Source: a virus
Length of the DNA stretch: 64,000 nt
Strand: one strand, 5' to 3'
IMG/VR virus record: IMGVR_UViG_3300010372_000004
Span: 1-64,000 of that record
Below are positions 324 to 64,000 of the stretch, in pieces. A program made the translations under genes and the position numbers. Under the pieces are notes generated by a model. The model searched no databases. It saw nothing but the letters and a program-made list of their open reading frames with translations, and was not told where the DNA came from. Every line of letters begins with the position of its first letter. Within the stretch, counting starts at the first letter, position 1.

Positions 324-2912
324 TTATGCTGTAGCAGTCATACGACCAATTGTTAAATAATTAATAATAGCGTCACGATCTTCTTTTGATGCTCGTTCCC
401 CAACATTTTCTGGATGAATACAAGGTATTCCATCCTGTAATTCCATCAATTCTATTTGACCGTATGGAGCCAAATCTTTATCAAATGGTTGGAATGTATA
501 ACCAACAGCCACTGAACTATCAATTTTCACACCTTGAAGTAGATCACTATCTTGAATCATTTGCTCATATAAGAAATCACAGAAAGCAGCAGCTTCTTTT
601 CTTGGTACAGAGAATAATAATTCATCATGAATGAGTAACATGAAACGAGCCTTAAAGTTTGCTTTTTTGGACTCATCAATTGTTCTCAAAATAGTTTTCT
701 TTGCCAAAGCAGCGCAAAGCCCTTGGATTGAGAAGTTCACCGCCTGATTATAAGATCGACGTTGGATTCTTCGCATAGCTTCACGTGCAAAGTTCAAAAT
801 GGCTTCTGAACCAAAGCTTGTGAATGCTTCCCAAATCATATCAGACCATTCTTCTGTTGCTTCAAAACGAACACGTGTATGACCATCTGGTAATTGAATC
901 ACTCCACGTTGTTGAATTTCAGCAATAATACCTTGTCGCCATTGTTCTGCAACTTTAAATGTTTCAGCATAACCTTTTACAGCTTCTGAGGTTTGTTCCA
1001 TGTTCCAGCCCATTCGTTTAGCTGTGTTCATCAACCAACCAGAGTACCAGTATTCAAAGTTTGCACCTTTACCCAACACGGTACGATGTGTTTTTTTATC
1101 AGGCAAGGCATAGAACTCATCCATTGCCAAGTTCATTACCCCTGCTGCAGCCTTACTATGTAAATCCGCATGTGGTCGTTGTCCATACGCTTCCAAAAAC
1201 TCAGGGTCCTGACTGTTTGCAGCAATTGCCACAAGCTCGATTGCAGACCAATCGGCTGAGACAATAACACTATCTGGGTCATCAGCTTGGAAAAAGCCAC
1301 GGACAAAGACAGAGTCACCACGTTTTGCAAGCTGTTGACCATTAGGGTTAGAACAACTGGTACGTCGAGTTGCCAACATACTGGTCATGATCGGGTGCAT
1401 CAAACCTGTTTCTGGGTCAACTAAATACAAGTATGGTGTGATGTATAATTTAAAGGCTTGTTCTGCTGAACCCAATTTAGCGTAAAGCTCAACAATTTTA
1501 CGACCTTTATGGTTTTCATCAATCTCATTCAGCATGTCAGCACGTGCATCTTTATCTGATTGAATCTTTCCACCTGTTGCCTTGCATGGTAAATCACAAA
1601 GAACAAATAAAATATAACGCATAGCCATGTAGTGGTTGATGGATAACTGAGCTTGCGGTGGATGTTTAGTGCTGTTGGTTTCTTCTTGATACCAAGCGTT
1701 GCCTGTTGCACATTTCACTTGAGTACATATTTGGTAAGCACTTAATTCATCTGAAGTATCTAACCAAGCTTTTACTTGATTAAAATATTTTAAATGAGAC
1801 TCAGGCTTATACCATTTCTCGTATTTAGCGAGTTTTTCATGTTGCTCAGGCAAAGACTCAGGCATAATTTCACGCAATGCTTTTTTAAAAGCAATGAGAT
1901 TTTTTGCAACTTCACCACGCATGGTGTTCTGTCTTTTAATAATCTCAGGACGATTTACTTTCATTCCCCCTATCGTTGTTTCTGAAAATACTTTAGTGAT
2001 TGGATTCTCAACCATTAAATATGTTTCTAACACTTTAGGATTGTTTGTCTGTAAATAACTATACATACGGAAAAATAAACGATAAGCCCAGATAGCATCG
2101 TCAGCACCATACGCCAGAACTTGTGCACCAGTAAGTGCTTCCATGTCAGGCTCGTCACCCAATGTGTCTTTAAATTCCAACATTTGATGACCAAACCAAG
2201 ATTTAACGGCTTTTTTCAAACCGTAACCATAGGCGATACTTTTTACAATCCCTTCATAAGAATGTGTCGCTGTACCCGACTTAGCACAGAATTTACCCAG
2301 CACTTCTTCTTGCTGAAAAGTTAAAGAACCTTTTTCATAATCAGAAAAGCAACGATCAATTTCTGGTATTAGTGGTTTAATCCCATTTACTACAGCATTA
2401 ATCAACTCAGATTTTTTATATTCATCTGGATTGTATGCTGTGACACACAATTGCATTGAACAGAAAGCATTAGGCAATTCATAATTATACGAACCTAAGT
2501 GAACAGAATGCTCATACTGTCTATTGTGAATAATTAAATTGGCATTAGCTTTTTTGGCTAAATCCATCCATTTCCATAGATAAGAAATGTTGATTATGTT
2601 CTCTGTGTCAGCATGACCAAAGTTAACATAAAAAGATTTATCCCCTGCAGAATGTCCAAAGTAAAAAGAAGCACCTGTTATTTTGGTGCGTTTAAAATCA
2701 AAAATTAATTTTTTACCATGACTGAAACCATCGTCGTCAATTTTCATTAACTTCTTAATACCATCGTGTGCATTTCTTTGTGAGGTCTCTATATCATAAC
2801 CACAGAAGTTTTGAGGTATAGACATTTGTTCTGAGATAAAGGAATCCCATTGATCTATGTTTGTTCTATCTACCAAAATATTCTGTACTGGTGTATTAAA
2901 GGCGAATGTCAT
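324..2912 (-). CDS. DNA polymerase, family A, with 3'-5' exonuclease
   Basis: ExoI YDIET, ExoIII YGADDA, motif A ADWSAIEL, motif B variant RTVLGKGANFEYWY, motif C IHDEL. Confidence 0.95.
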   Translation of the reverse strand: MTFAFNTPVQNILVDRTNIDQWDSFISEQMSIPQNFCGYDIETSQRNAHDGIKKLMKIDDDGFSHGKKLIFDFKRTKITGASFYFGHSAGDKSFYVNFGHADTENIINISYLWKWMDLAKKANANLIIHNRQYEHSVHLGSYNYELPNAFCSMQLCVTAYNPDEYKKSELINAVVNGIKPLIPEIDRCFSDYEKGSLTFQQEEVLGKFCAKSGTATHSYEGIVKSIAYGYGLKKAVKSWFGHQMLEFKDTLGDEPDMEALTGAQVLAYGADDAIWAYRLFFRMYSYLQTNNPKVLETYLMVENPITKVFSETTIGGMKVNRPEIIKRQNTMRGEVAKNLIAFKKALREIMPESLPEQHEKLAKYEKWYKPESHLKYFNQVKAWLDTSDELSAYQICTQVKCATGNAWYQEETNSTKHPPQAQLSINHYMAMRYILFVLCDLPCKATGGKIQSDKDARADMLNEIDENHKGRKIVELYAKLGSAEQAFKLYITPYLYLVDPETGLMHPIMTSMLATRRTSCSNPNGQQLAKRGDSVFVRGFFQADDPDSVIVSADWSAIELVAIAANSQDPEFLEAYGQRPHADLHSKAAAGVMNLAMDEFYALPDKKTHRTVLGKGANFEYWYSGWLMNTAKRMGWNMEQTSEAVKGYAETFKVAEQWRQGIIAEIQQRGVIQLPDGHTRVRFEATEEWSDMIWEAFTSFGSEAILNFAREAMRRIQRRSYNQAVNFSIQGLCAALAKKTILRTIDESKKANFKARFMLLIHDELLFSVPRKEAAAFCDFLYEQMIQDSDLLQGVKIDSSVAVGYTFQPFDKDLAPYGQIELMELQDGIPCIHPENVGERASKEDRDAIINYLTIGRMTATA

Positions 2913-3237
2913 TGAGAGACTCCATAGGTGTGTAAATTAAAGTAAAAGTTATATTGTTTAAAACATGTGGAACCCGACCTCTTTCTAAAGACAAGCTTGG
3001 CTCCTTTGCTATTCTTTGTTTTAAAATATCCAAAGCTCTATCAATACAACCATACTCTTTATGTAGAAGTTCCATAGACAAAGAAATATCTGCAAGATAT
3101 TTTTGATTGATCTGATCTTTAAGAGCATTCAATAACACTTCTTTTTTAAATCGAGATATTGTTGTATCTATCAAGTCCATTTTAATTTTTGGGTCAATGA
3201 TAGGCATACAAGAATTTATCACTTGATGCAATAACAT
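2896..3237 (-). CDS. Hypothetical protein
   Basis: 113-aa ORF, GGAG RBS, overlaps polymerase start. Confidence 0.75.
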   Translation of the reverse strand: MLLHQVINSCMPIIDPKIKMDLIDTTISRFKKEVLLNALKDQINQKYLADISLSMELLHKEYGCIDRALDILKQRIAKEPSLSLERGRVPHVLNNITFTLIYTPMESLNDIRL

Positions 3238-3262
3238 GGTTTAGCTCCAATTTTAGGGTTAG

Positions 3263-3297
3263 AAAAAGGACAGAAGGTACTTTCGTAGCTTCTGTCC
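3263..3297 (-). terminator. Rho-independent terminator-like hairpin
   Basis: GGACAGAAG/CTTCTGTCC stem followed by a U-run on the minus strand. Confidence 0.6.
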
Positions 3298-3318
3298 GTT
3301 GTTGATTCAGCATATATG

Positions 3319-3346
3319 AAAAAACCCACTAGGGCAATAGTGGGTT
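3319..3346 (-). terminator. Rho-independent terminator
   Basis: AACCCACTA-ttgccc-TAGTGGGTT followed by TTTT on the minus strand. Confidence 0.75.
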
Positions 3347-3349
3347 GGT

Positions 3350-3640
3350 TGATTATTTTTCACTGTCAAGGATAATCTCACTTGTGTAATTAAAAGGTCA
3401 GAGTTTTTAATTACCATTTTGTGATTATATTCAAATATCTCTTTGCAGAGTGCCTACCAGATTTGAATATTCGCTTGCTCAAGCTTACACAAAATACAAC
3501 TCACATATTTTACTTAATTAAAAGAAAAGGTATCAAATCTTTTAATTAAATTCCTCCACGATGTCTTATAGTATCCATTTTTCTGAGCTAAGGAGCTGGA
3601 TATTTGGAACTCTTTGAGATATGTGGCTCACATACAAACT
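3350..3640 (-). ncRNA. Putative structured RNA / 3' trailer
   Basis: Dense nested inverted repeats (ATATTCAAAT/ATTTGAATAT, TTAATTAAAAGA/TCTTTTAATTAA, GTAATTAAAA/TTTTAATTAC, CACATAT/ATATGTG); no ORF. Confidence 0.45.
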
Positions 3641-3646
3641 TTAGCT

Positions 3647-4138
3647 TTAGCCCTCTAAAGTCATGTGTTCATTATAATCAAAATTCTCAGGGATACCATA
3701 CTCTTGTTTGATGTTTAAAATAATTTCTTTCATTGCCTGAACATAAGTGTCATATAGCTCAAAATCGAAATTTAATTTTTGAAGCTGTTCAGTGACCAAT
3801 TTGTTGAATAACACAAAATCTAAACTACCAAAAGTTTTTGTAAGACTTTCAATGGATGCAGTTAAATGTGCCATACTTGATACTGTTGAGTTTTCCAATT
3901 TTTTTACTTGTTCTTCTTCAGAATCTTTTGGATTCCATAAGTTCCCTTCAAGCATCACTAAAAAATCTTTGGCTTGTTTTTCTGTTTGAATTGTTGTATT
4001 TACTGCCATTTTAATTGGACCCAAGACAGCATCTACACCTTGTAATTGTATGTGACTTAAAAACATATTCATGGAGATAGCCACGTTGGTAGCCAATACT
4101 TCTTCTGTGATTTCACTTGGGTTTGGATTTAAGTTCAT
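3647..4138 (-). CDS. Hypothetical protein
   Basis: 163-aa acidic helical ORF, AAGGA RBS. Confidence 0.8.
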   Translation of the reverse strand: MNLNPNPSEITEEVLATNVAISMNMFLSHIQLQGVDAVLGPIKMAVNTTIQTEKQAKDFLVMLEGNLWNPKDSEEEQVKKLENSTVSSMAHLTASIESLTKTFGSLDFVLFNKLVTEQLQKLNFDFELYDTYVQAMKEIILNIKQEYGIPENFDYNEHMTLEG

Positions 4139-4157
4139 GGAGGTTTCCTTCAGATAT

Positions 4158-4184
4158 AAGAAAAACCTGAATATATCAGGTTTT
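4158..4184 (-). terminator. Terminator after tRNA
   Basis: AAAACCTGA-tatat-TCAGGTTTT followed by further U residues on the minus strand. Confidence 0.65.
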
Positions 4185-4238
4185 CGTTTAGTTTACTTCA
4201 ATTTTATTTTGGATTCAAAAATAGAATAACCAAGAAAA

Positions 4239-4314
4239 TGGCTGCTTCAACACGGTTCGAACGTGTGACCCACAGATTAACAGTCTGCTGCTCTACCAAC
4301 TGAGCTATGAAGCA
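4239..4314 (-). tRNA. tRNA-Asn (GTT), CCA encoded
   Basis: 76 nt; acceptor TGCTTCA/TGAAGCA, G73, CCA; D arm GCTCAGTTGGTAGAGC; anticodon loop CT-GTT-AA; T loop TTCGAAC. Confidence 0.97.
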
Positions 4315-4316
4315 AT

Positions 4317-5220
4317 AAACATAAGCCTTGTGATTTACCAGCCTTGGCTTCAGCTGTAGATTTTTACATCAAACTGACTTGCAAATCAGTTTGAACATTG
4401 GTCTTACCCAATTTAGGAAAGTCGCCCTAAATCACAAGCTTATATTTACTTAGTGGTACGTTCTCCAATCGGCTGACTAGACCAATTTGGGTTTTTACAC
4501 TGGATAATAGCTAGTTACCAATGTTCTGGGAATAAACCGTTGAAAATTCCCTCATGCAGTGAGATGTAGAATAATCACCTAACTGAAGCACTCGCCACAG
4601 GTTTGTAATCTTCTTGCACCCCGATCTGGTTCGTCAAAGAACATACCACTAAGTAAACATCTTTAAGAAATCTTCAAGGTTACGGTTATGGCTTTCCGCT
4701 TACCTAGAGTCAAAAGCCAATTATGCACTCTGCCTTTCGGTCTGAAAATTTCTTAAAGATATTTGGACATGAACACATAGGGTTCTACTAAATTCGTTAC
4801 CGAAATTAAAGCTGTGTCCACAGCTTGGTTAAAACCTAAATTTTAACAGTGATTAAGTCACTAGCTGCCTTTTATTGTCCATTAGGCTATCGACGTTCAC
4901 TCACTTTGTAATAAAACAATCAAATGGGTGATTGCTTCAAAGCTCTGGAACATTTAAGAAAATCACTTGTAAGCTTTTCACTTACTTGCTGATTTGGTTT
5001 GTATGCAGTCCCCAAACAGGCGATGCTTGTTACCAAGCTGGTAGCCACAGACTATTGTAGAAAGTCTTAACCATATAGGGATTCGGGCTTTTCTACTCAT
5101 TTGTGATTTTCTTGGAAACGATTTTGTTACTCTATCAAGAACACACTTTTCAGCTTTACTTATCAAGGAACACCAAAATCGTTTCCAAGAAAATCGAACT
5201 GCTGATTTCTCAGCAGTTCG
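4317..5220 (-). ncRNA. Array of about six structured RNA domains upstream of tRNA-Asn
   Basis: Abutting 11-24 bp closing stems; imperfect positions are G-U on the minus strand; GNRA-capped inner hairpins. Confidence 0.7.
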
Positions 5221-5234
5221 TCTTCATGTGACCA

Positions 5235-5263
5235 AGATTATTATAGAAAACAAAATCCGTCAA
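5235..5263 (-). promoter_or_regulatory. Sigma70-like promoter for the ncRNA/tRNA unit
   Basis: TTGACG-17 nt-TAATCT on the minus strand. Confidence 0.6.
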
Positions 5264-5376
5264 CCACGTTTTTCATTTTCTTTTTCCTCTTTCCGTTTTT
5301 GGCGTTTATCATATAAATAAATTCCTATACGAAACAAGGCTTTAGCTGCGTCAATAATAAGTTCTCGTTTGTTCAT
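5260..5376 (-). CDS. 38-aa cationic amphipathic peptide, candidate lysis accessory
   Basis: MNKRELIIDAAKALFRIGIYLYDKRQKRKEEKENEKRG; ATG 7 nt after the endolysin stop; below ORF-track cutoff. Confidence 0.65.
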   Translation of the reverse strand: MNKRELIIDAAKALFRIGIYLYDKRQKRKEEKENEKRG

Positions 5377-5383
5377 AATTTAA

Positions 5384-6124
5384 TCAATACCCTTTGTTTT
5401 TAAACTTTAAACACGCCTTTGCAATTTTAACATCATAGTTAAATTTAGCATACTGTGAACCATTATAGCCTTTGGCAAAAGGTACACAATTTTCTGCAGA
5501 ACCATTTATTTTTAGAAAAGCAGATTTTAAATTGTTGGCAATAATATACTTTACCAATAAGTCATAGTGATTACTTTCTTCAGAAACCAAGGAGAACATC
5601 ATGTCCCAAGGTGTTTTAAAACCAAGTGTTTTGTAATGAAAACCCATCACCTGAAATTTACCCATTGATACTGACATGAATGCAGCAAGAGGGTCATACT
5701 CACACGCCCGAAGTAATTTTTCCCAGCTGTCGTTTATGTCATTTTTATTTGCATCAATGGTGTAATTTCCACCGCTTGGGTAATTAAAGAAAGTAGACTT
5801 TGGTGCAGTTTTATCATCATTATATGTCCAGAATTTGTGTCGTTCATATAATATTTTTACATGCCCTGTATCATACCAACCGAAACCCCCTGACTCCACT
5901 TCTGCTACAGCTCGGATTCTGGCTGTGCCTGTGTTATCGCCTAAAGTAAGAGAAAAATCTTCAAGTTGTGCATCAGTCACAGCCTTGGCTTTGAGATCAG
6001 CAAATAATTTATAAGTTGCTTCTTTAGTGGCTTTACCAATAATACCATCAGCACCAGAATTACCTATGAAACAACCCTTGGACAACAACCAATTTTGGTA
6101 ATCAACACGTGTTTTTTTAGACAT
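5384..6124 (-). CDS. Endolysin: N-terminal peptidoglycan-binding-like segment plus N-acetylmuramidase (DUF3380-type)
   Basis: ADGIIGKAT; AVAEVESGG, ILYERHKF, SMGKFQVMGFHY, FAKGYNG. Start at 6124 preferred over 6142 on RBS spacing. Confidence 0.9.
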   Translation of the reverse strand: MSKKTRVDYQNWLLSKGCFIGNSGADGIIGKATKEATYKLFADLKAKAVTDAQLEDFSLTLGDNTGTARIRAVAEVESGGFGWYDTGHVKILYERHKFWTYNDDKTAPKSTFFNYPSGGNYTIDANKNDINDSWEKLLRACEYDPLAAFMSVSMGKFQVMGFHYKTLGFKTPWDMMFSLVSEESNHYDLLVKYIIANNLKSAFLKINGSAENCVPFAKGYNGSQYAKFNYDVKIAKACLKFKNKGY

Positions 6125-6127
6125 AAA

Positions 6128-6165
6128 AATAGACCTTGACATTTATCAAGGTCTATTCTAACAGC
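6128..6165 (-). promoter_or_regulatory. Extended -10 promoter overlapping an RBS-occluding hairpin
   Basis: GCTGTTAGAATA runs into a 12-bp inverted repeat AATAGACCTTGA/TCAAGGTCTATT. Confidence 0.6.
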
Positions 6166-6170
6166 AATTT

Positions 6171-6455
6171 TTACTTATGTTCTTGCATTCTTTTAAGTCG
6201 TTTGCACATCTCTATGTATGGTTTATAGTCAACACTCATCAAATACAATGCCAGCCCTGATAAAAGAAAAGCAGCCCAATTGTTTTGTCGCATTCCAAAC
6301 AAGGATGCCAAAATAAACAATACCAAGTATTTTCGAGAGGTGACAAAATTTAAAACATTTCTTTTGTTATTAAACCAGTACAATCCGATGATACTAAGTA
6401 TAGCCATGATTGACCAAAATACAGTTAAAAAAGTAATTTGCATATTATCCACCAT
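6171..6455 (-). CDS. Holin/antiholin-like membrane protein
   Basis: About three hydrophobic segments, basic C-terminus, next to endolysin. Confidence 0.65.
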   Translation of the reverse strand: MVDNMQITFLTVFWSIMAILSIIGLYWFNNKRNVLNFVTSRKYLVLFILASLFGMRQNNWAAFLLSGLALYLMSVDYKPYIEMCKRLKRMQEHK

Positions 6456-6867
6456 CTTTTGGATATTTCATAACTTTAGCATACGCTATAAGGCGATCAC
6501 GTAAAGTTATTATTGTTAACGGTAGGGCTACACAAGCTACAGCAATCCAAATTGGATTCATTAGTGTTAACCCTTTATCCTTTTGTAAACAATAAATAAA
6601 CGCTAAAAGACCGCCTAAAATACCAGCTACAATTTTAATACCTTTGGACAGTTCTACTTCACCAGCTTTAGTTGGTATTTTAACCCCCAACCATGTGCCT
6701 AAGATCATTGTGAGGATACACAATAAAAAAGTAAATTCGTTTTTATAAAACAGAACAAACTCCGTAGACACACTATTGGTTTGAGCAAAAGCACTTGTTG
6801 TGACCAAGGTAATTAAATAACCAATTAAAAACCAAGGTGACAAATACTTTAATTTGAAACGCAACAT
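6445..6867 (-). CDS. Holin-like membrane protein
   Basis: About four hydrophobic segments, in lysis cassette. Confidence 0.65.
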   Translation of the reverse strand: MLRFKLKYLSPWFLIGYLITLVTTSAFAQTNSVSTEFVLFYKNEFTFLLCILTMILGTWLGVKIPTKAGEVELSKGIKIVAGILGGLLAFIYCLQKDKGLTLMNPIWIAVACVALPLTIITLRDRLIAYAKVMKYPKDGG

Positions 6868-6921
6868 GCGTTTTCCCCTATAGTACGATGCTGGAATTTT
6901 ACCAGTTTTTGAGCGTTTAAA

Positions 6922-6956
6922 AAATAAAAACCCACTTCGAGAGTGGGTTTTTATTT
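6922..6956. terminator. Bidirectional terminator
   Basis: AAATAAAAACCCACT/AGTGGGTTTTTATTT. Confidence 0.85.
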
Positions 6957-6961
6957 ATTGT

Positions 6962-11317: not shown

Positions 11318-11319
11318 AA

Positions 11320-11354
11320 AAATATCTCCTTAATTCAGGAGATATTCTAACAGC
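11320..11354 (-). promoter_or_regulatory. Extended -10 promoter overlapping an SD-occluding hairpin
   Basis: GCTGTTAGAATA (identical to 6154-6165) runs into AATATCTCCT/AGGAGATATT. Confidence 0.65.
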
Positions 11355-11393
11355 TTATTTTATGTTGACTGAGACTTTTTCATAGAAAAATTA

Positions 11394-11846
11394 TCAGTCA
11401 CTTTTGTCAGTTTTTAATGCTTTAGATTTTTTCGGGTCATCAGTGGCTGTTAAATCAACAACGTCACTTGAAAGAGCAGAGCCATAGTCTGTTGTTAAAG
11501 TTCCACCCACAGTGTTTGTATCTGTTTTCGCTGGGCTTGCTTTACCATTGGGGTTATTTAAACCAGCTTTGAACTGATCTACAAAAGCTTCTGCAGCTTT
11601 ATCATCTTCAGCAATATTAAAGACCACTGGCTTTTCCAATTCGTCCAACCATGCTTTAGATTTTTCAGCATAATATAAACGAGTAGGTACAACATAATTT
11701 TCATCTTTGCTAAACTTTAAAAATTCTTCAAAGATGGCTTCACCTTTGCCATTCGCTGCCTTAAAAGATTCTTTTTTATTTAAAAGAAGAATGCTTGAGT
11801 CACCCGACTTTTTGGTTAATTGTATTGCCATAGTTGTTACCTTCAA
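11394..11846 (-). CDS. Hypothetical protein
   Basis: 150-aa ORF; start may be the second Met. Confidence 0.75.
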   Translation of the reverse strand: MKVTTMAIQLTKKSGDSSILLLNKKESFKAANGKGEAIFEEFLKFSKDENYVVPTRLYYAEKSKAWLDELEKPVVFNIAEDDKAAEAFVDQFKAGLNNPNGKASPAKTDTNTVGGTLTTDYGSALSSDVVDLTATDDPKKSKALKTDKSD

Positions 11847-13274: not shown

Positions 13275-13352
13275 AATTTAGTCCATCAATGAGGGTGATT
13301 ACTAAACATAAAATACCATCAATTACTATTAATTAATAGGTTTATATAAAAA

Positions 13353-13383
13353 GAAAAAATCCCCGATCAAAGATCAGGGATTT
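13353..13383 (-). terminator. Terminator
   Basis: AAATCCCTGATC-ttt-GATCGGGGATTT followed by a U-run. Confidence 0.75.
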
Positions 13384-13402
13384 GAAGATAAACTATCTGG
13401 TT

Positions 13403-14146: not shown

Positions 14147-14263
14147 AAGATTTCTCTTTATGTTAAATGTTAAATGTTAGAGTAAAAATTATCACCTAAC
14201 ACACAATTAAAGTCTTTCGGTCAAAGCCTACTTCGTTTAATCAGTTATTAGGTGATAACAGCT

Positions 14264-14292: not shown

Positions 14293-14312
14293 ATAAAATT
14301 TAAAAATTATTT

Positions 14313-48771: not shown

Positions 48772-48772
48772 C

Positions 48773-50134: not shown

Positions 50135-50199
50135 TTGTGACTATAATAAAACCCACCCAAGAGTGGGTTTTATTTTTGCCTAATAAATGAGGAAAGAGT

Positions 50200-57024: not shown

Positions 57025-57938
57025 GTAATTTTGATTATTCTCAAAAATTTAGTCGTCGGGTCATTAATGACCCACGGCTAAAGCGGTTCATTTGGGATTT
57101 CCACAATTTTGGTACAACTTATGTTGAGCCTTTTGTCCATGCTTCTATAGGTCCAGAAGGAACTCAAAATTTTGTACCTTATAGTTCTATTAAACCAGTG
57201 AGAAACATCTCACTGGATTTCCCCTTACTTTTATTGCAAGAAGAAGACCATGCGCTAATCACAGGGTTGGCATATCGACCAGAGATGGATTTTAATAAAT
57301 TGAAGGACTTTTATATTGAACATAAAAGCTATAAACCTTTTATTTATGAACACCCCATTTATGGAGATATGACAGTTAGATTTGCTAAACCAATTGCCAT
57401 GCCTAAAAAAATAAAAGGTGGTGTAGGTGTGGTGCAAAACTTTACAGTAGAATTACAAGAAGTTGTCACCACAGACTATACATTTCAAAAAGGTGAGAAT
57501 TATCAAGGAGATATGGTTTTTCCAGTAGGTTATTATGATGTTGAAATTGATTATCCTGACAACTCAAATCTAATCCCTTTGGGAAACAACTACACAATGG
57601 CTTTCTACTCTGTGGCTAAAAATTTGAGAGTTTTTAAGTTAACATGTAGTGGTTTGAAATACTTTATAGACTCAGACAACAAAATCAGACTGGGTCCTTG
57701 TCCTGATCAAAACATGGCTTTATTGGAAATGTTCTATTTAAAGTATAGACTTAATTCCAGATTCAATTTTGAATATATGGGAGAAGTTATTCCTGTCCGT
57801 TTTCAGCAGCCAATAAGTATTCCAAAAATTAACGGAAATACTGGTATAATTTCAGACTTAGAACTAACCCTTATTGAAACACCTTACAAAACTTCAGAAA
57901 AAGGAACCGTGTATGAGCGAGGTGATAAACTTAGTTAA
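57021..57938 (+). CDS. Distal tail protein (gpM-like, internally duplicated)
   Basis: Two copies of FY...F..E....VRF..PI..PK..G..G....EL. Confidence 0.65.
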   Translation: MSNFDYSQKFSRRVINDPRLKRFIWDFHNFGTTYVEPFVHASIGPEGTQNFVPYSSIKPVRNISLDFPLLLLQEEDHALITGLAYRPEMDFNKLKDFYIEHKSYKPFIYEHPIYGDMTVRFAKPIAMPKKIKGGVGVVQNFTVELQEVVTTDYTFQKGENYQGDMVFPVGYYDVEIDYPDNSNLIPLGNNYTMAFYSVAKNLRVFKLTCSGLKYFIDSDNKIRLGPCPDQNMALLEMFYLKYRLNSRFNFEYMGEVIPVRFQQPISIPKINGNTGIISDLELTLIETPYKTSEKGTVYERGDKLS

Positions 57939-58392
57939 TGCTTCAAATCTTGAACAAATTAAAAAAGTTAATTTGTTCAAGATTGTCACAGTTGATCAAA
58001 ATGAAATATACATGTGCGACACATTCACTGTTTCTGATTTTTTAGGTGATGAATATCGCTTTATGTCCTGTGCCTTACAAGGTGCAGGGCAATCTTTTAC
58101 AAATGAATATGTTAGACCTCAGTTTTCATTTGAAAACCCAAACTTCATGTTCAACCAATATGTATTAGAAAAGAATCTTGATTACGCACAAATCATTCAT
58201 TATGAAATGATTTTTGATACTTCAGAAGGTGTCAATGGTCAAGTAATCTCTACAAATGTTTGGCAAATTTATCAAGTATCCAACGTAGGTACTCAAATCA
58301 CGGTTAAGTTAAGAGCCTTATCTGATTGTCCAAACACAAATATTCCCCCACGCTCTTATTATGCCCCAGAGTTTTCGAGTGTTAATGTCTAA
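57913..58392 (+). CDS. Minor tail protein (gpL-like)
   Basis: RP.....N, L....D...IPPR.Y; start moved to MSEVI. Confidence 0.7.
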   Translation: MSEVINLVNASNLEQIKKVNLFKIVTVDQNEIYMCDTFTVSDFLGDEYRFMSCALQGAGQSFTNEYVRPQFSFENPNFMFNQYVLEKNLDYAQIIHYEMIFDTSEGVNGQVISTNVWQIYQVSNVGTQITVKLRALSDCPNTNIPPRSYYAPEFSSVNV

Positions 58393-58865
58393 TGATTGAA
58401 TATAAATTTTATCAAGAGTTAATGGAAAGGAATTACAAAATGGGTGAGACCGATTGCTTTGGTCTCATTCGTGATTTGTATGATAAAAAATATGGTATTC
58501 TTCTGCCAAATTTTGCTCGTCCTAAAAACTTTTTTGACCCAAGAATTAATGTTTATGCACGAATAGTGGCTGAACCTTATTTTAAAGAAAGAGGTTTGTG
58601 TCCTACTACCTTTAAAGAAGGGGATATTTTAGCTTTCCGAATTGGTACAGACTTAGTCAACCATGTTGGGGTTTATTTAGGAAATAAACTTTTTTTACAT
58701 CAAATGTTTAATGCTCAACCAAGAGAAGAAAATTTAGACGATAGATGGTTGAGACGTTTGTATATGGCACATTACCATGTGGATGTTCCTGTCGTGAAAA
58801 AGAAATTGAACATTTTAGATGTTATGCCAAATTACCTAAAGGCTGAAAGATATGTTGAACAATAA
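58392..58865 (+). CDS. NlpC/P60 tail assembly protein
   Basis: DCFGLIR, NHVGVYLG, LH. Confidence 0.9.
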   Translation: MIEYKFYQELMERNYKMGETDCFGLIRDLYDKKYGILLPNFARPKNFFDPRINVYARIVAEPYFKERGLCPTTFKEGDILAFRIGTDLVNHVGVYLGNKLFLHQMFNAQPREENLDDRWLRRLYMAHYHVDVPVVKKKLNILDVMPNYLKAERYVEQ

Positions 58866-59151
58866 TTGGAATCCTATTGAGGAACTTTGTGGTTACATTG
58901 CAGAAGACGGCTCCTTGGTAGAATTAAAAAATTTGTCTTCAAACCCAAAAATGGGTTTTTCTGTTAATATTGATGAAGTTCCAGAAGATGCTCAAGGCTT
59001 GTGGCACAGCCACCCTAGTAATGATTTAAATTTATCTGTTGAAGATTATTTAAACTTCTTACAATTCCCTCAATATATTCATAGAATATATGGGAAAGAT
59101 AGTTATGCTGAATATTACGTCAGAAGCAACGTAGTATATCGCAAGGAGTAA
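58852..59151 (+). CDS. JAB/MPN domain protein
   Basis: ELCG, WHSHP, LS.ED. Confidence 0.88.
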   Translation: MLNNNWNPIEELCGYIAEDGSLVELKNLSSNPKMGFSVNIDEVPEDAQGLWHSHPSNDLNLSVEDYLNFLQFPQYIHRIYGKDSYAEYYVRSNVVYRKE

Positions 59152-59153
59152 AA

Positions 59154-59951
59154 ATGCTTATAGTGTTCGAAGAATCTTTAAGAGATTTATTTCCAGAAGG
59201 TACTTATGACATTAAAGCATCCACACCATTGGATGCTTTAAAGTTATTAGCTACCAACCACCCTTTGGTTGATAAAATAAGACCAAGGGCTGTGAGAATT
59301 AGACAAATAAAGGACTTGAGTTTATTAACTGACCCAAGCCTTCAAAGTAAAACCTTTGAAATTATTCCAGCTGATCACAATGAATTAAACAAAGCTTTTT
59401 ATTCAGGCGCAGGCGGTGACAACGGCTGGGTAAATGTCATTATCGGTGTCGTGATCATTGTCGTAGCTGTAGTCGCTGCCCCAGTCAGTGGTGGTTCATC
59501 TTTAGCAGCTGGTGGTGCAGCCGTAGGCGGTGGTGCTGCAGCAACTACAGGTTTTTCTTATGCAGCTTTTGCAGCACAAATGGCTATGTCAATTGGTGTT
59601 TCATTAGTTCTGACTGGACTTATGCAATTATTGGCTCCCAAGCCGAAAGATGCTGAAGGTAATAAAAGTTCACGAAAATTTGGAACTCAAACAACTACAG
59701 AACTAGGTGCACCCATTCAAATGATTTTTGGCTTACACAGAGCTTATTTTCATTTAATTAGTTTCAATGTCGATGCCAGAAAGTACGATGGTGTAGATCG
59801 ACCCGATGATTCCCCTTACTTTAAAGAAAAAGTAGATGAACATTTACCTGAAGCAAATTTGAACCGCTTCTATGGTATTTACCAAGCAGGGGATGAAACT
59901 AAGTTGCTACAGGTAAATAATGAAATAAACCGTACAGGTATGGAGTATTAA
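59154..59951 (+). CDS. Tail assembly protein (gpI-like)
   Basis: GAGG plus hydrophobic segments, G.PI...FG. Confidence 0.8.
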   Translation: MLIVFEESLRDLFPEGTYDIKASTPLDALKLLATNHPLVDKIRPRAVRIRQIKDLSLLTDPSLQSKTFEIIPADHNELNKAFYSGAGGDNGWVNVIIGVVIIVVAVVAAPVSGGSSLAAGGAAVGGGAAATTGFSYAAFAAQMAMSIGVSLVLTGLMQLLAPKPKDAEGNKSSRKFGTQTTTELGAPIQMIFGLHRAYFHLISFNVDARKYDGVDRPDDSPYFKEKVDEHLPEANLNRFYGIYQAGDETKLLQVNNEINRTGMEY

Positions 59952-59952
59952 A

Positions 59953-62900
59953 ATGGGTGGTAAAAAGGGTAAATCCCCAACAATTACAGCTGATAACTTA
60001 TATAGCCAAGACATTTTAGAGATTGGAGCAGCTATCGGCAATGGTACTATTTACGGTTTAGAAAAAGGACTGGAATCTTTCTATATTGGAAATATCCCTT
60101 TCCAATCAGAAACAGGCACATATAATTTCCAAGATGTTTGTGTCAGTTTTAGACAAGGATATTATGATGATCTACCTTTAAAATATATTATGGGTGGTGA
60201 AGGTTCTATTATTCAAGAAACTGTAGGTATGACCTTACCAGCAGAAGTGACTCGAACAATCATTACGCCAGCAACCCATCGTGGGCGTATTAAACAAATT
60301 GATGTTCGTTTTTTAGTTTCTATGCTTTATGCAGGGGACTCTAAAGGTAATACAAGAACCAGTAGTTTGTTAATGTCGATTAAATACAGAAAAGTAGGCG
60401 ACACCGTCTGGTCAAAAGTTACAGAAACAACAGCATCGTTATATTCATCAAAATCACAAACAGACACCTTACGTCAAGAAGCATCAAGACGAGGTTTAAA
60501 TTATGATGCCATGACAGAAGCGGATAAAGTCACTTTTGCCAATGAAGTATTGACCGATAATCAGATTATTACCAGTGCCGATGACTTAAAACAAACCTAC
60601 ATCCCTTCTGGTTATGGAGGGGGCTTTGGTTTATCTGGTTTACAAGGTATGAGTGTTCAGGCAATTCAAGCACAAAAAAGAGCTGAAGCTATTCGTCAAC
60701 AAATTTCAAATAACCAAGCTATAATAGATGCTTATAACGCAGGGGCTTTAACTATTGAAGGTAAAACCACTGGTGGTTATATTTATGAAGTGAGTATCCC
60801 TATTTTTGATAATGAGGGAGATAATCATGATTGGGAAATTCAAATCACTAGATTGTCTAAAGAGCTAACTTCTGAGGAAAAGAAATTTTCAAACAAGCAA
60901 ATCTCTTTAGAATCTATGGCTTTGATCACTGATCAAGAAAAGATATATAGAAAAACAGCAATATGTCATATTGTGGCGCAGCACACAGACCGCTTTGATA
61001 CCATTCCAGATTTCTCTGGGGATTTCTATGGTCTAATTTGTGATATTCCCTCTAATTATAATCCCTTCGAACACACTTACGATGAAGCCACACCTTGGGA
61101 TGGAACATATAAAAAAGGTTGGACCAATAACCCTTTTTGGATTTTACGTGAATTGATCATGAATCAAGACTGGGGTTTACGTTCAATAGAAAGAAAAATG
61201 CAAGTGGACAATGCTAATTTCTACACCTTAGCAAAATATTGTGATTTTAAAGTCCCTACCTTCGACGGTAAACTTGCTCCACGATATACTTTTAATGAAG
61301 TTGTTCAGCAAAAAACTAAAATTAAAGAATATATCAATTATGTAGCTGGGGCTGTGCATACGACTTTGCGTGAAATTAATGGTGTTTATTATGCTTTTAT
61401 GGATAAACCAAACACACCTAAATTTTTCGTAACGCCTGAAATGATTCTGCAGACTAATTTTCAATATAGTTCTGCTGATTTAGAGTCAAAATATAATTCA
61501 GTAAATGTTACTTTTCTCAATGCTGAGAATAACTATCAGCAAGATCGACGAACTGTAATTGATAATCCGTCAATTGAAAAATATGGGATAATCCCTTATG
61601 AATTTCAAGCTGTCGGTTGTACTAATGTTACGGAAGCAATTCGTCAAGCAGTTTATGCTTTATTAACCAACCGTGATGAAGACATTTTTACAACCTTCAA
61701 CTTGCCACGGCTCGGACACTTGGTGAATATTTACGATCATTTCTATATTGCTCATAAAGAAAATGGTTGGGGAAATCACGCTCGTATTTTGCAATATGAC
61801 ACAGTAACCAGAACAGTTCATTTAAGAGACCCAATTTTTGAAGGGACTTACACCTTATACTATCACACCCCTTTTGGCATAGGCTCAGTTTCAGTACATA
61901 GTCAAGACCCTTATTCTTTAAGAATCTTAGGTGAATTTTTTGATAGTGAATATCTTCAAGAAGAAACCCCAATCGCTATCAGTGGTGGGGTCTATGGTCA
62001 ACCAAAAGTGTTTCGAGTTTTAGGTATTATGCAAGATGACACCACAGGGGCATCAGGTGGTGAAGTGTTTGAGTTTAAAGCAGCAACAGTTTCTGAAAAT
62101 AAATTTTTGGCTGTAGATAATGTTAATAATCCAGAACTTGTAAATTTAACATTCGATGTAACTGACACTATCTATAAGCGAGAACCAACTCCTACAGCAC
62201 CAGAAAATGTTCGTTTACGATACAAAGACTGGTCATCATATAATGGTCAATTGGTTTATCAACTTTCCTTCAATACTGAAGTTAAAGCATATTACTATGA
62301 CGTTGTCTGGGTAGATGAAACTACAGGTGAAAGAAGAAATAAACGAATTTTTGGACAGGGTGGAGAACTATTCCCAGCGTTTGATCGTGAAACCAATAAG
62401 GTCTCATTATTTATTACGCCATTCAATTCGAAAGGAGAAGCTGGTTATACAAAATATATTCGTGATATTGTACCTTATGTAGATGCAGAAACGAAATTAC
62501 CAATCTTGCAAGGTATTGAGTCTGTAGGTTCAAGTATTAAAGTAAAATGGTCAGCTGAAACATCAGATATGTTCCCATACACCTTTAAATACTTTTCTTA
62601 CATGACACCGAAAGAGACTGTGACAAATATTGTTCTGAAGCCAACGGATACTGAATATTCTGTACCAAACCAAGGTGAAGGTAAATACTCATTCCAATTG
62701 GTTTATGATCAGGACGGTTCTGGTTCTAAAATGTCTTCTGAAGTTTGGCATTATAATTCAACTACAAGTGGTTTCTATATCCAACCACAGATTAATAGCA
62801 TAACTTCAAGTAAGAAAAATGAAGATGGTTCTTCCGCTTCTGGTACGAAAGTTTTCCCTCAATTAACTGTCACAGTTGCTGAGTGGATGACAAATAAAGA

Positions 62901-63138
62901 TTTAAATCAATTAACCAATCCGTTTGCTATTCGTCATGAAAACACAGTCGGTGGTGGTGATTATGTCTTTTTATCTGGTGATTTCTATGTTCTTAAAACA
63001 GGAGATACTACAGCCAGAATTGTTATTTCTAAAGAGATTGAAGTTGGAGCCAATTTGCAAATCAGGGTTCAGAACCAATGGGGTACAACAACGTCACCTT
63101 GGTCAGAAGCTTTAGTTCCAGCAGCACCTACAACTTAA
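59953..63138 (+). CDS. Central tail tip / host specificity protein (gpJ-like)
   Basis: IPSNYNP, WDG.YK..WTNNP.W, YCD, PRYTFN; FN3-like C-terminus. Confidence 0.9.
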   Translation: MGGKKGKSPTITADNLYSQDILEIGAAIGNGTIYGLEKGLESFYIGNIPFQSETGTYNFQDVCVSFRQGYYDDLPLKYIMGGEGSIIQETVGMTLPAEVTRTIITPATHRGRIKQIDVRFLVSMLYAGDSKGNTRTSSLLMSIKYRKVGDTVWSKVTETTASLYSSKSQTDTLRQEASRRGLNYDAMTEADKVTFANEVLTDNQIITSADDLKQTYIPSGYGGGFGLSGLQGMSVQAIQAQKRAEAIRQQISNNQAIIDAYNAGALTIEGKTTGGYIYEVSIPIFDNEGDNHDWEIQITRLSKELTSEEKKFSNKQISLESMALITDQEKIYRKTAICHIVAQHTDRFDTIPDFSGDFYGLICDIPSNYNPFEHTYDEATPWDGTYKKGWTNNPFWILRELIMNQDWGLRSIERKMQVDNANFYTLAKYCDFKVPTFDGKLAPRYTFNEVVQQKTKIKEYINYVAGAVHTTLREINGVYYAFMDKPNTPKFFVTPEMILQTNFQYSSADLESKYNSVNVTFLNAENNYQQDRRTVIDNPSIEKYGIIPYEFQAVGCTNVTEAIRQAVYALLTNRDEDIFTTFNLPRLGHLVNIYDHFYIAHKENGWGNHARILQYDTVTRTVHLRDPIFEGTYTLYYHTPFGIGSVSVHSQDPYSLRILGEFFDSEYLQEETPIAISGGVYGQPKVFRVLGIMQDDTTGASGGEVFEFKAATVSENKFLAVDNVNNPELVNLTFDVTDTIYKREPTPTAPENVRLRYKDWSSYNGQLVYQLSFNTEVKAYYYDVVWVDETTGERRNKRIFGQGGELFPAFDRETNKVSLFITPFNSKGEAGYTKYIRDIVPYVDAETKLPILQGIESVGSSIKVKWSAETSDMFPYTFKYFSYMTPKETVTNIVLKPTDTEYSVPNQGEGKYSFQLVYDQDGSGSKMSSEVWHYNSTTSGFYIQPQINSITSSKKNEDGSSASGTKVFPQLTVTVAEWMTNKDLNQLTNPFAIRHENTVGGGDYVFLSGDFYVLKTGDTTARIVISKEIEVGANLQIRVQNQWGTTTSPWSEALVPAAPTT

Positions 63139-63145
63139 ACTAAAA

Positions 63146-63183
63146 ATAATAAAAAGCCCTCAATAATGAGGGCTTTTTATTAT
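63146..63183. terminator. Bidirectional terminator
   Basis: ATAATAAAAAGCCCTCA/TGAGGGCTTTTTATTAT between convergent genes. Confidence 0.9.
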
Positions 63184-63188
63184 ATGTT

Positions 63189-64000
63189 TTATGTATTCAT
63201 CAAATCAGCATACTTATGAGCATCTTTTTTGAAATCAGCTGGTGGGTATTCCCATTCCCCAACAAGTGCTCCAATTTGATAGTTTGTTCCAGCAGTTTCA
63301 AAGAAGTTATCTAATGATGCTGAGAACAACATTGAAGCCCATTCTAATTCAAGAATATTCGATGTGCCGTAAATTGTTTCTACACCAATGTTCAATTTTT
63401 TAATACGAACATCGGCAAGCTGTTTCAAGAACATTTCAATTTGATCAACAGTTAGATCGTGCAATGGTCCACGCTTTAACACAGCCTTGGCATAATTCAC
63501 ACCACGTTGAACAGAATTTTTAAACATAGCAATAACTACATTTTGTAAATTCTCTAAACGATTGTTTTTATTAATAATTTCCTTATTTTCTTCAAGTTCT
63601 GTGTTGAAGAATTTAGTCAGAATAGTGCAATGATGATTTTCATCACGTGATGACCAAGACACAATTTCTTGACCCAGTGCTTTCATTTTACCAAAACGCT
63701 GGTCGTTTAAAAGCATCAAGAAAATACCATATAAACCAATGCCTTCCCCACAAATATGACGACATAAAGTGGTTAATCGTTGATATAGATCATCCGACTC
63801 TGCTTGTTGAATCATGAAATCATGCTGTTCTGCAATCTCGTCAATTGCTAACATTTCCGCATAACCAGTTTTTGGGAACCCTAACTGGTCAGGTAACATA
63901 TCATAATTGTCAACATGAGTAAGTTCACGGTCAATGATTCTACCTATGACCATGCGTAGTTCAGGTTGACGATACCATTTGGCTAAGTTGTCAAAATAAG
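63189..64000 (-). CDS. nrdB: Ribonucleotide reductase class I beta subunit, partial (start beyond window)
   Basis: RE..H...Y, EG..LY..F, WS.RDE..H, NFFE....Y; frame open to the right edge. Confidence 0.88.
   Translation of the reverse strand, partial: YFDNLAKWYRQPELRMVIGRIIDRELTHVDNYDMLPDQLGFPKTGYAEMLAIDEIAEQHDFMIQQAESDDLYQRLTTLCRHICGEGIGLYGIFLMLLNDQRFGKMKALGQEIVSWSSRDENHHCTILTKFFNTELEENKEIINKNNRLENLQNVVIAMFKNSVQRGVNYAKAVLKRGPLHDLTVDQIEMFLKQLADVRIKKLNIGVETIYGTSNILELEWASMLFSASLDNFFETAGTNYQIGALVGEWEYPPADFKKDAHKYADLMNT

What the first reader, a model, noticed from the sequence alone, without database searches (positions are those of the whole stretch)
324..63953. No Pro-Gly dipeptide in any protein: CCNGG avoidance reshapes the proteome
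Seen: I read the prolines in the supplied translations and found none followed by Gly. Every Pro-Gly codon pair spells CCNGG, so synonymous change cannot remove the site. Motifs that commonly carry PG are altered: exonuclease DNIKGLKG and IPKVEADD (often DNIPGV.G and PG.EADD), helicase QAGTGKT, terminase STPTYAG, NlpC KEGD. A rough estimate from typical P and G frequencies is several tens expected. Inference: long-term selection by a CCNGG-recognising system (ScrFI/SsoII-type R-M or related) strong enough to cost amino-acid changes, suggesting the phage DNA is not otherwise protected.
Basis: partly seen in the sequence, partly recalled or inferred. Interest (0 to 1): 0.72.

Follow-up and report, generated by a model that had tools for sequence, protein, structure and literature searches.

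The report
Restriction-site purge removes two dipeptides
This uncultivated phage, kin to Acinetobacter phages, has removed about thirty restriction-enzyme target words from its DNA so completely that two amino-acid pairs that cannot be spelled without them (Pro-Gly, Trp-Pro) are missing from every protein; the evasion strategy is well known, but its cost at protein level is rarely this clear.

Summary
The window, and the whole 74.7-kb IMG/VR phage genome, holds no CCNGG. Pro-Gly is 0 against about 46 expected.

I add that Trp-Pro is also 0 against 9.5 expected. TGG-CCN always contains GGCC, and GGCC is absent. These are the only two of 400 dipeptides missing.

CCNGG is one item in a very broad purge:
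- Absent words include GGCC, CCGG, CGCG, GGATC and CCWGG.
- 26 of 49 testable palindromic hexamers are avoided, against 2.5% of non-palindromic hexamer pairs.

CCGG is avoided on its own, so more than one specificity acts. Still, 201 Acinetobacter genomes include LlaMI-type (5), MvaI/BcnI-type (9) and HpaII-type (9) endonucleases; specificities recalled.

Four unrelated A. baumannii phage lineages, besides the EAb13 kin, are also Pro-Gly-free. Three closer uncultivated relatives are not. None of their 8, 17 and 22 aligned Pro-Gly sites is kept in this phage.

Side finding: CATCAG occurs 33 times and CTGATG never, which fits Type III evasion.

This is a known strategy in an extreme case. An earlier scan note on another phage reported a similar dipeptide loss.

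The parts
1..64000 (.). Whole window (and the rest of the 74,658-bp record). Zero copies of CCNGG, CCGG, GGCC, CGCG, GGATC/GATCC, GAATTC, TGTACA, AACGTT, CTTAAG, AGATCT, ACTAGT, AGTACT, CTCTTC/GAAGAG, TCTAGA, GATATC, GCATGC, ATCGAT, CCATGG, GTATAC, TGCGCA, TACGTA, GGYRCC, CACGTC and CTGGAG. Near zero for ATGCAT, CATATG, GAGGC and ACCTGC.
11843..12655 (-). 5'-3' exonuclease (FEN). It has DNIKGLKG and IPKVEADD where Taq and M. smegmatis Pol I have DNLPGVKG / DNLPGIPG and PGYEADD / PGFEADD. The first K-for-P is shared by all relatives, including those that do not avoid CCNGG.
324..2912 (-). Family A DNA polymerase. It has LLQGV where sister phages V1 and V2 have LLPGV.
17731..18600 (-). DUF2303 protein. 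It has AG where V1, V2 and V3 all have PG. By parsimony this is a loss on the branch leading to this phage.
36424..39099 (-). Primase-polymerase/helicase. It has LPKGY where V2 and V3 have LPPGF / LPPGY; V1 and EAb13 have LPEGY.
41758..43242 (+). Portal protein. It has DPNSPY where V2 and V3 have DPGSPY / DPGTPY; V1 and EAb13 have DPS.
   Evidence: named portal after its EAb13 counterpart, which is annotated so
44409..44807 (+). Head-module protein. It has AG where V1 and V2 have PG.
46100..46519 (+). Structural-module protein. It has LG where V2 and V3 have PG.
59953..63138 (+). Central tail fibre (gpJ-like). It has LPAE where V1 and V2 have LPGE.
57021..57938 (+). Tail protein. It has CP where EAb13, Mystique and TCUP2199 have WP. 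This is the only Trp-Pro column shared by two or more relatives in the alignments.
1280..62566 (+). 25 of the 33 CATCAG sites lie in the window, all in one orientation. The first starts at 1280 and the last at 62561. The reverse word CTGATG is absent from the + strand.

Best explanation
The window is most of the genome of an uncultivated siphovirus of the EAb13/Mystique group of Acinetobacter phages. I found no DNA methyltransferase gene, so its DNA is presumably unmodified. It escapes host restriction by not containing the target words.

It circulates among hosts, most likely Acinetobacter, whose strains together carry many Type II systems. Any phage copy with a site is cut in some host, and over time every copy of about 30 words has been removed. 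Most words go by synonymous codon choice.

Two dipeptides cannot be spelled without a banned word. Pro-Gly (CCN-GGN) always makes CCWGG or CCGG. Trp-Pro (TGG-CCN) always makes GGCC. The ban therefore reaches the protein level, and one of the two residues is replaced.

The pressure on CC(N)GG comes from several enzyme families present in the genus: LlaMI/ScrFI-type (CCNGG), MvaI/BcnI-type (CCWGG or CCSGG) and HpaII-type (CCGG).

Shown here: the absence and its statistics; the palindrome bias; the same ban in unrelated Acinetobacter phages; Pro-Gly count tracking CCNGG status among close relatives; the enzyme families in the genus.

Inferred: that these enzymes are the selecting agents; the host itself; that the replacements carry a fitness cost.
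For: Counts and null models:
- CCNGG 0 (CCWGG 0/61, CCGG 0/57), GGCC 0/91, CGCG 0/39, GGATC 0/72.
- All are zero in coding DNA, where synonymous shuffles expect 24 to 84.
- 26 of 49 testable palindromic hexamers are avoided, against 44 of 1762 non-palindromic pairs.

Dipeptides:
- PG 0/45.8 and WP 0/9.5 are the only absent dipeptides and the only ones the banned set forces out.

Convergence across unrelated A. baumannii phages:
- AP22, Fri1, Loki and Acibel004 have CCWGG 0, CCGG 0 to 3 and PG 0. Loki also has GP 0 and WP 0.
- The palindrome observed/expected profile correlates with Acinetobacter phages (rho 0.33 to 0.61), but not with Achromobacter phage JWF (0.05) or Pseudoalteromonas phage KB12-38 (0.20).

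Natural experiment inside the clade:
- The tree is ((EAb13,TCUP2199),(V3,(V2,(query,V1)))), all supports 1.0.
- CCWGG is 15, 22 and 168 and PG is 11, 21 and 38 in V1, V2 and V3.
- Of their 8, 17 and 22 PG sites aligned to this phage, none is kept. Control dipeptides are kept at 34 to 76%. At most sites one of the two residues survives.

Mutation pattern:
- Words one substitution from CCWGG are enriched for transversions as much as for transitions. TGCG is depleted. So there is no deamination signature.

Host genus, 201 Acinetobacter genomes:
- LlaMI 5, further MvaI/BcnI 9, HpaII 9, NgoPII 3, HaeIII 1, AlwI 2.
- A C5-methylase lies next to the endonuclease in 4 of the 5 loci examined.
- A. calcoaceticus has a documented CGCG methylase (PMC8565308).

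No methylase family was found in the phage.
Against: - The host is not known. The record is a metagenomic virus, and Acinetobacter is inferred from kinship (TerL about 65% identical, proteome about 49%) and from the avoidance profile.
- Pfam family membership does not prove the recognition sequence of the Acinetobacter enzymes. No methylome or REBASE data could be consulted.
- The enzyme families are rare in species representatives (2 to 5% each). I ran no control genus.
- Parsimony suggests the clade's ancestor was already Pro-Gly-free, and that V1 to V3 regained PG. So few replacements can be dated to this phage's own branch; only one loss is unambiguous.
- No cost of the replacements was measured.
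- The record is 91% complete by CheckV, so a methylase could lie in the missing part.
Confidence: 0.85

Rival explanations
1. One CCNGG-cutting system of ScrFI/SsoII type is the agent that removed CCNGG, and with it Pro-Gly.
For: Both CCWGG and CCSGG are zero. LlaMI-family endonucleases with SsoII-like HTH plus C5-methylase partners exist in Acinetobacter, one of them on a probable small Rep3 plasmid.
Against: CCGG outside CCSGG is 0 against 38 expected, which a CCNGG enzyme cannot explain. V1 has CCGG 0 with CCWGG 15. Presley has CCWGG 19/70 with CCSGG 33/23. AP22 and Fri1 have CCWGG 0 with a few CCGG. So the pressures can be separated. MvaI/BcnI-type and HpaII-type enzymes are more frequent in the genus than LlaMI-type.
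Confidence: 0.1
2. Mutational decay rather than selection. Host C5-methylases methylate the phage DNA, and 5-methylcytosine deamination erodes the C-containing sites.
For: The four-base and five-base words that are absent all contain C. Acinetobacter carries C5-methylases.
Against: The absence is total, not a partial depletion. It reaches positions that require amino-acid change. Sites rich in A and T, whose known methylases are adenine-specific (my recollection), are equally absent: GAATTC, CTTAAG, AGATCT, TGTACA. Deamination products are not specially enriched: CTAGG 0.59, TGCG 0.57, while the transversion neighbours CCAGC (2.27) and CCACG (1.71) are enriched.
Confidence: 0.03
3. The sites are avoided because methylation at them would expose the phage to methylation-dependent (Type IV) nucleases in the next host, not because unmethylated sites are cut.
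For: The outcome in sequence would be the same, and none of my tests separates the two. Type IV sites overlap CCNGG and CCGG (Rusinov et al. 2018, PMC6286503).
Against: The palindrome-wide pattern, and the matching Type II endonuclease families next to methylases in the genus, fit classical restriction more simply. I have no direct evidence against this reading as a contributor.
Confidence: 0.1
4. Artefact of assembly, or chance.
For: None.
Against: The Poisson chance of zero is 1e-17 to 1e-40 for each four-base word. The same pattern is seen in isolate phage genomes from independent laboratories. Near-identical DNA is held by metagenome runs from at least 10 studies.
Confidence: 0.005

Closest known systems
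Restriction-site (palindrome) avoidance in virulent dsDNA phages (Sharp 1986; Karlin 1992; Rocha 2001; survey by Rusinov et al. 2018, PMC6286503; review PMC8410138)
   Same: Target words of Type II enzymes are depleted or absent. The bias is towards palindromes. No phage methylase was found. The pattern depends on the host.
   Different: The review describes avoidance as working through synonymous changes. The survey text mentions neither amino acids nor Acinetobacter. Here CCWGG and CCGG are banned together, and so is GGCC, which makes two dipeptides unencodable. The ban is visible in the proteome, and it recurs in at least five Acinetobacter phage lineages.
Coliphage T7: few CCWGG sites, and all EcoP15I (CAGCAG) sites in one orientation (from my own knowledge)
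   Same: Strong depletion of CCWGG. One asymmetric Type III-type word is kept in a single orientation (here CATCAG 33 : CTGATG 0).
   Different: By my recollection, T7 keeps CCGG, so Pro-Gly can still be encoded, and all T7 genes lie on one strand, so codon bias confounds its asymmetry. Here the asymmetry holds in genes of both orientations.
Acinetobacter phages EAb13, Mystique, TCUP2199, Loki, Acibel004, Fri1 and AP22
   Same: CCWGG is 0 or 1, CCGG 0 to 3, and PG 0 or 1. EAb13 and Mystique are described as broad-host-range (PMC10508131, PMC12013898).
   Different: This phage also bans GGCC, CGCG, AACGTT and TGTACA, and one orientation of CTGATG; its EAb13-group kin do not. The papers I searched on Mystique, on Loki and on Acinetobacter phage diversity do not mention site avoidance.
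Earlier scan note e1-3415497 (a 34-kb wastewater/freshwater phage)
   Same: It reports absence of CCNGG and GGNCC words 'deep enough to remove two dipeptides'.
   Different: It concerns other DNA, and I did not check it. It is an AI note, not independent evidence.

Membership tests
Restriction-site avoidance (Type II) | Word counts far below expectation under nulls that preserve composition and codon usage | tested here: met
   Zero against 39 to 91 expected for the four-base and five-base words. Zero against 24 to 84 under synonymous shuffling.
Restriction-site avoidance (Type II) | Avoidance concentrated on palindromic words | tested here: met
   26 of 49 palindromic hexamers are avoided, against 44 of 1762 non-palindromic pairs.
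Restriction-site avoidance (Type II) | Avoided words are recognised by enzymes of the host | tested here: inconclusive
   The host is unknown. In 201 Acinetobacter genomes, endonuclease families are present whose type members cut the avoided words (specificities from my own knowledge): CCNGG, CCWGG/CCSGG, CCGG, GGCC and GGATC. A CGCG methylase is documented in A. calcoaceticus. The specificities of the Acinetobacter enzymes themselves are not known.
Restriction-site avoidance (Type II) | The pattern follows the host rather than phage ancestry | tested here: met
   Unrelated Acinetobacter phages share the pattern (rho 0.33 to 0.61). Kin from other hosts do not (0.05, 0.20). Close kin V1 to V3 differ.
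Restriction-site avoidance (Type II) | No self-protection by a phage methylase or base modification | tested here: inconclusive
   PF01555, PF00145, PF02086 and PF02384 gave no match. The record is 91% complete, and hypermodification pathways were not screened.
Selection by a ScrFI/SsoII-type CCNGG system alone | CCWGG and CCSGG are both absent | tested here: met
   0/61 and 0/21.
Selection by a ScrFI/SsoII-type CCNGG system alone | CCGG outside the CCSGG context lies near expectation | tested here: not met
   [ATG]CCGG[ATC] is 0 against 38 expected.
Selection by a ScrFI/SsoII-type CCNGG system alone | Such a system exists in the presumed host genus | tested here: met
   RE_LlaMI is found in 5 of 201 genomes. 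In 3 of the 4 loci examined it lies next to an HTH plus C5-methylase.
Type III evasion by single-orientation sites (T7/EcoP15I-like) | An asymmetric word is present in one orientation only | tested here: met
   CATCAG 33 against CTGATG 0; p = 1e-8 among 1570 word pairs tested.
Type III evasion by single-orientation sites (T7/EcoP15I-like) | The asymmetry does not depend on the direction of transcription | tested here: met
   CTGATG is 0 in genes on the + strand (8.1 expected) and 0 in genes on the - strand (9.7 expected).
Type III evasion by single-orientation sites (T7/EcoP15I-like) | The word is a known Type III recognition site | tested here: met
   PstII recognises CTGATG (PMC6868433).
Type III evasion by single-orientation sites (T7/EcoP15I-like) | The host carries a Type III system of that specificity | not tested
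   No search was made.

The most novel reading that the evidence does not exclude
The pooled restriction repertoire of one bacterial genus acts as a proteome-wide filter on its phages. At least five unrelated Acinetobacter phage lineages have converged on proteomes without Pro-Gly, and some also lack Trp-Pro or Gly-Pro. In this clade the ban looks ancestral. Lineages that escaped it (V1 to V3) are regaining Pro-Gly at new positions. The EAb13 group still shows a 'fossil' shortage of Trp-Pro although GGCC is back to normal. If this is general, forbidden dipeptides would show directly that DNA-level immunity constrains protein sequence space. They would also give a marker, free of sequence similarity, for the present and past hosts of uncultivated phages.
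Probability: 0.55. Interest if true: 0.65.

Novelty: new member of a known kind. Interest (0 to 1): 0.5.

Why it matters
Restriction-site avoidance is usually described as a matter of silent codon choice. Here the ban is strict enough to delete two dipeptides from a whole proteome. The same deletion recurs in unrelated Acinetobacter phages, including broad-host-range phages (EAb13, Mystique). This has three consequences.

- It gives a simple sequence signature (no PG, no WP, many palindromes missing) that points to the host and to the breadth of restriction a phage has faced. That is useful for assigning hosts to metagenomic phages and for choosing or engineering phages.
- It gives a natural experiment, in relatives with and without the ban, for measuring what DNA-level immunity costs proteins.
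- It warns that inserting ordinary cloning sites or Pro-Gly linkers into such phages may lower their plating on many strains.

Tried and rejected
DNIKG, AGTGKT, STPTYxG and K/Q-x-GD are shared with relatives that do not avoid CCNGG (JWF and/or KB12-38, V3), so they are family traits and not evidence. IPKVEADD is variable, and only KB12-38 keeps the canonical PG. A family-wide homologue search for the exonuclease was therefore not run.
- EcoRII-type enzymes (PF09019). None was found in 201 Acinetobacter genomes. The family rang in no control genome either, so this says little.
- Phage methylases as the reason why V1 to V3 tolerate sites. None was found.
- Population test. Contigs of four wastewater runs were laid on 20 kb. 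Only 40 of about 540 differences were listed. None creates a banned word, against 3.0 expected (P about 0.04). This is too weak to use.
- The endolysin search for further Acinetobacter phages gave only kin.
- Pairwise comparison with JWF and KB12-38 (31 to 35% identity) is too distant to date replacements.
- Deamination as the cause was rejected.
- Literature. I found no paper linking site avoidance to dipeptide loss, or describing site avoidance in Acinetobacter phages. The library is incomplete, so this is not proof of novelty.
- In one LlaMI-type locus (G138) no methylase lies within 4 kb.


Full report
WHAT THE DNA IS

The window is the first 64 kb of a single-contig, 74,658-bp IMG/VR virus record. 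It is linear, 91% complete by CheckV, and has 35.9% G+C.

Pfam hits show a virulent-type siphovirus gene set:
- family A DNA polymerase
- 5'-3' exonuclease
- GIY-YIG endonuclease
- SF2 helicase
- primase-polymerase
- large terminase
- gpJ-like tail fibre
- muramidase
- ribonucleotide reductase
- a weak Thy1 match (the EAb13 counterpart is annotated thymidylate synthase)
- SbcCD

The nearest named phages are A. baumannii phages EAb13, Mystique, TCUP2199 and fJoAci01/04. Their TerL is about 65% identical, and about 49% identity holds over some 50 best-hit protein pairs. More distant kin are Achromobacter phage JWF and Pseudoalteromonas phage KB12-38.

Three closer uncultivated relatives were fetched from IMG/VR: V1, V2 and V3, with TerL 81, 78 and 71% identical. 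Eight concatenated core proteins give the tree ((EAb13,TCUP2199),(V3,(V2,(query,V1)))), rooted on JWF and KB12-38, with all supports 1.0.

Near-identical DNA is held by wastewater, groundwater and surface metagenome runs from at least ten studies.

THE OBSERVATION

CCNGG is absent from the window and from the whole record. The word is its own reverse complement, so Pro-Gly cannot occur in any frame.
- With 100 crude gene calls (23,004 aa), PG is 0 against 45.8 expected, or 39.1 for the window's proteins alone.
- With protein sequences and codon usage fixed, synonymous shuffling still gives 24.0 +/- 4.8 CCNGG in coding DNA, with a minimum of 11. So the word is also purged from the frames where it could be avoided silently.
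- Trp-Pro is 0 against 9.5 expected. TGG-CCN always contains GGCC, which is absent (0 against 91).
- PG and WP are the only two of 400 dipeptides with no occurrence. They are also the only two that the set of absent words makes impossible to encode; one tripeptide, MYT, is also forced out.

CCNGG IS NOT SPECIAL

Counts below are observed/expected for the whole record.
- Four-base and five-base words: GGCC 0/91, CCGG 0/57, CGCG 0/39, GGATC 0/72, CCWGG 0/61, GCSGC 0/23, GAGGC 2/50.
- 26 of 49 testable palindromic hexamers have an observed/expected ratio of 0.15 or less. Only 44 of 1762 non-palindromic hexamer pairs do. Several of those 44 are known Type IIS-type words, by my recollection: CTCTTC, ACCTGC, CTGGAG.
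- GATC (145/192) and GGNCC (38/84) are only mildly low.

This is the classical signature of Type II restriction avoidance, in an extreme form.

ONE ENZYME OR SEVERAL

CCNGG is the union of CCWGG and CCSGG, and CCSGG always contains CCGG.
- CCGG outside the CCSGG context is 0 against 38 expected. A CCNGG enzyme alone cannot account for that.
- The pressures separate in other phages:
  - V1 has CCGG 0 but CCWGG 15/61.
  - Presley has CCWGG 19/70 but CCSGG 33/23.
  - KB12-38 has CCSGG 2/88 while other CCGG is 86/108.

I obtained Acinetobacter genome handles through a genus-level rpoB primer. I then searched 201 species-representative Acinetobacter genomes for endonuclease families. The recognition sites given for each family are from my own knowledge.
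- RE_LlaMI (type member cuts CCNGG): 5 genomes
- MvaI/BcnI (CCWGG / CCSGG): 9 further genomes
- RE_HpaII (CCGG): 9 genomes
- RE_NgoPII and RE_HaeIII (GGCC): 3 and 1
- RE_AlwI (GGATC): 2
- EcoRII-C: 0

In three of the four LlaMI-type loci examined, the neighbour is a C5-methylase with an N-terminal HTH, the SsoII-like architecture. One of these lies on a 6.3-kb contig with a Rep3 initiator. An A. lwoffii MvaI/BcnI-type gene lies next to a C5-methylase. A CGCG methylase is documented in A. calcoaceticus (PMC8565308).

Family membership does not prove specificity, and I ran no control genus.

THE PATTERN FOLLOWS THE HOST GENUS

Four unrelated A. baumannii phages were checked: AP22, Fri1, Loki and Acibel004.
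- CCWGG is 0 in all four, CCGG is 0 to 3, and PG is 0 against 32 to 57 expected.
- Loki also lacks GP and WP. Acibel004 has GP 1 and WP 0.
- The N4-like phage Presley is the exception.

The observed/expected profile over 80 palindromes was compared with that of this phage:
- Acibel004: rho 0.61
- Loki: 0.46
- AP22: 0.41
- Fri1: 0.40
- JWF: 0.05
- KB12-38: 0.20

This supports an Acinetobacter host and a pressure imposed by the host.

THE PROTEIN-LEVEL EFFECT AMONG RELATIVES

PG counts follow CCNGG status:
- query: 0
- EAb13 group: 0, 1, 0
- V1: 11
- V2: 21
- V3: 38
- JWF: 91 of 102 expected

V1, V2 and V3 have 8, 17 and 22 PG sites that align to this phage, and none is PG here. Control dipeptides (GG, AG, SG, PA, PS, PP) are kept at 34 to 76%. 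At most sites one of the two residues is retained, as AG, KG, QG, SG, PK, PN or PA.

Ten columns carry PG or WP in two or more relatives. Examples follow:
- polymerase: LLPGV in relatives, LLQGV here
- DUF2303 protein: PG in V1 to V3, AG here
- primase: LPPGY in relatives, LPKGY here
- portal: DPGSPY in relatives, DPNSPY here

Where both avoid PG, the query and the EAb13 group often use different substitutes (K against E, N against S).

Fitch parsimony on 42 six-taxon orthogroups finds almost no anciently kept PG anywhere in the clade. There are 11, 4 and 1 unambiguous gains in V3, V2 and V1, and one unambiguous loss in the query. The simplest history is a Pro-Gly-free ancestor, the ban maintained in the query and the EAb13 group, and partial recovery where the ban was lifted.

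Against Taq and M. smegmatis Pol I, the exonuclease does read KG and PK where they read PG.

But the K in DNIKG, the AG in the helicase P-loop, STPTYxG in the terminase and xxGD in the tail protein are all shared with relatives that do not avoid CCNGG. They cannot be attributed to this ban.

RIVAL EXPLANATIONS

- Deamination decay is not supported. Transversion neighbours of CCWGG are as enriched as transition products, TGCG is depleted, and AT-rich sites are purged as well.
- A contribution from methylation-dependent nucleases cannot be excluded.
- Artefact is excluded by the same pattern in isolate genomes and by the many runs that hold this DNA.

SIDE FINDING

CATCAG occurs 33 times and its complement CTGATG never on the + strand. 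This is the only significantly asymmetric hexamer (p = 1e-8 among 1570 pairs).

CTGATG is zero in genes of both orientations, where synonymous shuffles expect 8.1 and 9.7. CATCAG lies near expectation. CTGATG is the site of the Type III enzyme PstII (PMC6868433). Type III enzymes need inversely oriented sites (my own knowledge), so this looks like T7-style evasion. None of the relatives shows it.

NOVELTY

Site avoidance is textbook. The review I read frames it as synonymous. The main survey mentions neither amino acids nor Acinetobacter. The Acinetobacter phage papers I searched do not mention avoidance.

I class this as a new, extreme member of a known kind, with a proteome-level and convergent aspect worth a systematic survey.

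Noticed in passing
window 1280-62566 (25 sites); whole record 33 sites: CATCAG occurs 33 times on the + strand and CTGATG never. This holds in genes of both orientations. CTGATG is the recognition site of the Type III enzyme PstII. None of the relatives shows the asymmetry.
   Followed up: yes
L001/L002 (EAb13), L008-L011 (Mystique), L012-L015 (TCUP2199): These phages have GGCC at expectation (133 to 160 copies). Yet Trp-Pro is only 1 to 3 of about 12 expected, and TGGCCA is 0 of about 22. This may be a fossil of an older GGCC ban.
   Followed up: partly
L061-L064 (V3, IMGVR_UViG_3300011785_000002): CCWGG is over-represented (168 against 92 expected). V3 carries 38 Pro-Gly pairs, mostly at lineage-specific positions. 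No methylase of PF00145 or PF01555 was found.
   Followed up: partly
whole genomes of V1, V2, Fri1, Loki and Presley (L034-L043, L053-L060): ACCTGC/GCAGGT is 3 to 5 times over-represented in several Acinetobacter phages. It is nearly absent in this phage (1/20) and in Acibel004 (3/27).
   Followed up: no
whole record (window and L025): CCACG against CGTGG is 54:18, and ACCACG occurs 26 times against 6.6 expected. This is an over-represented, polar word of unknown role.
   Followed up: no
L189 (Acinetobacter genome G199, 6.3-kb contig): A LlaMI-type endonuclease and an adjacent C5-methylase sit on a small contig with a Rep3 replication initiator. This is probably a small plasmid carrying the restriction system.
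   Followed up: partly
L021-L024 (Pseudoalteromonas phage KB12-38): CCSGG is 2 against 88 expected, while other CCGG is normal (86/108). GAATTC, TGTACA and CTCTTC are absent. This phage has a different avoidance set, of BcnI/NciI type.
   Followed up: no
L008-L011 (Mystique), helicase gene: In my crude gene call, Mystique's only Pro-Gly lies in the helicase P-loop (PGSGKT), where all relatives have AG. The called ORF also starts later than in its relatives. I did not check whether this Pro-Gly coincides with the genome's single CCWGG.
   Followed up: no
window 36001-56000: Contigs about 99% identical to this phage occur in wastewater, groundwater and surface metagenomes from many studies. Two runs carry a 333- or 334-base insertion at 50179/50180, and one run a 1123-base insertion near 40204.
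   Followed up: no
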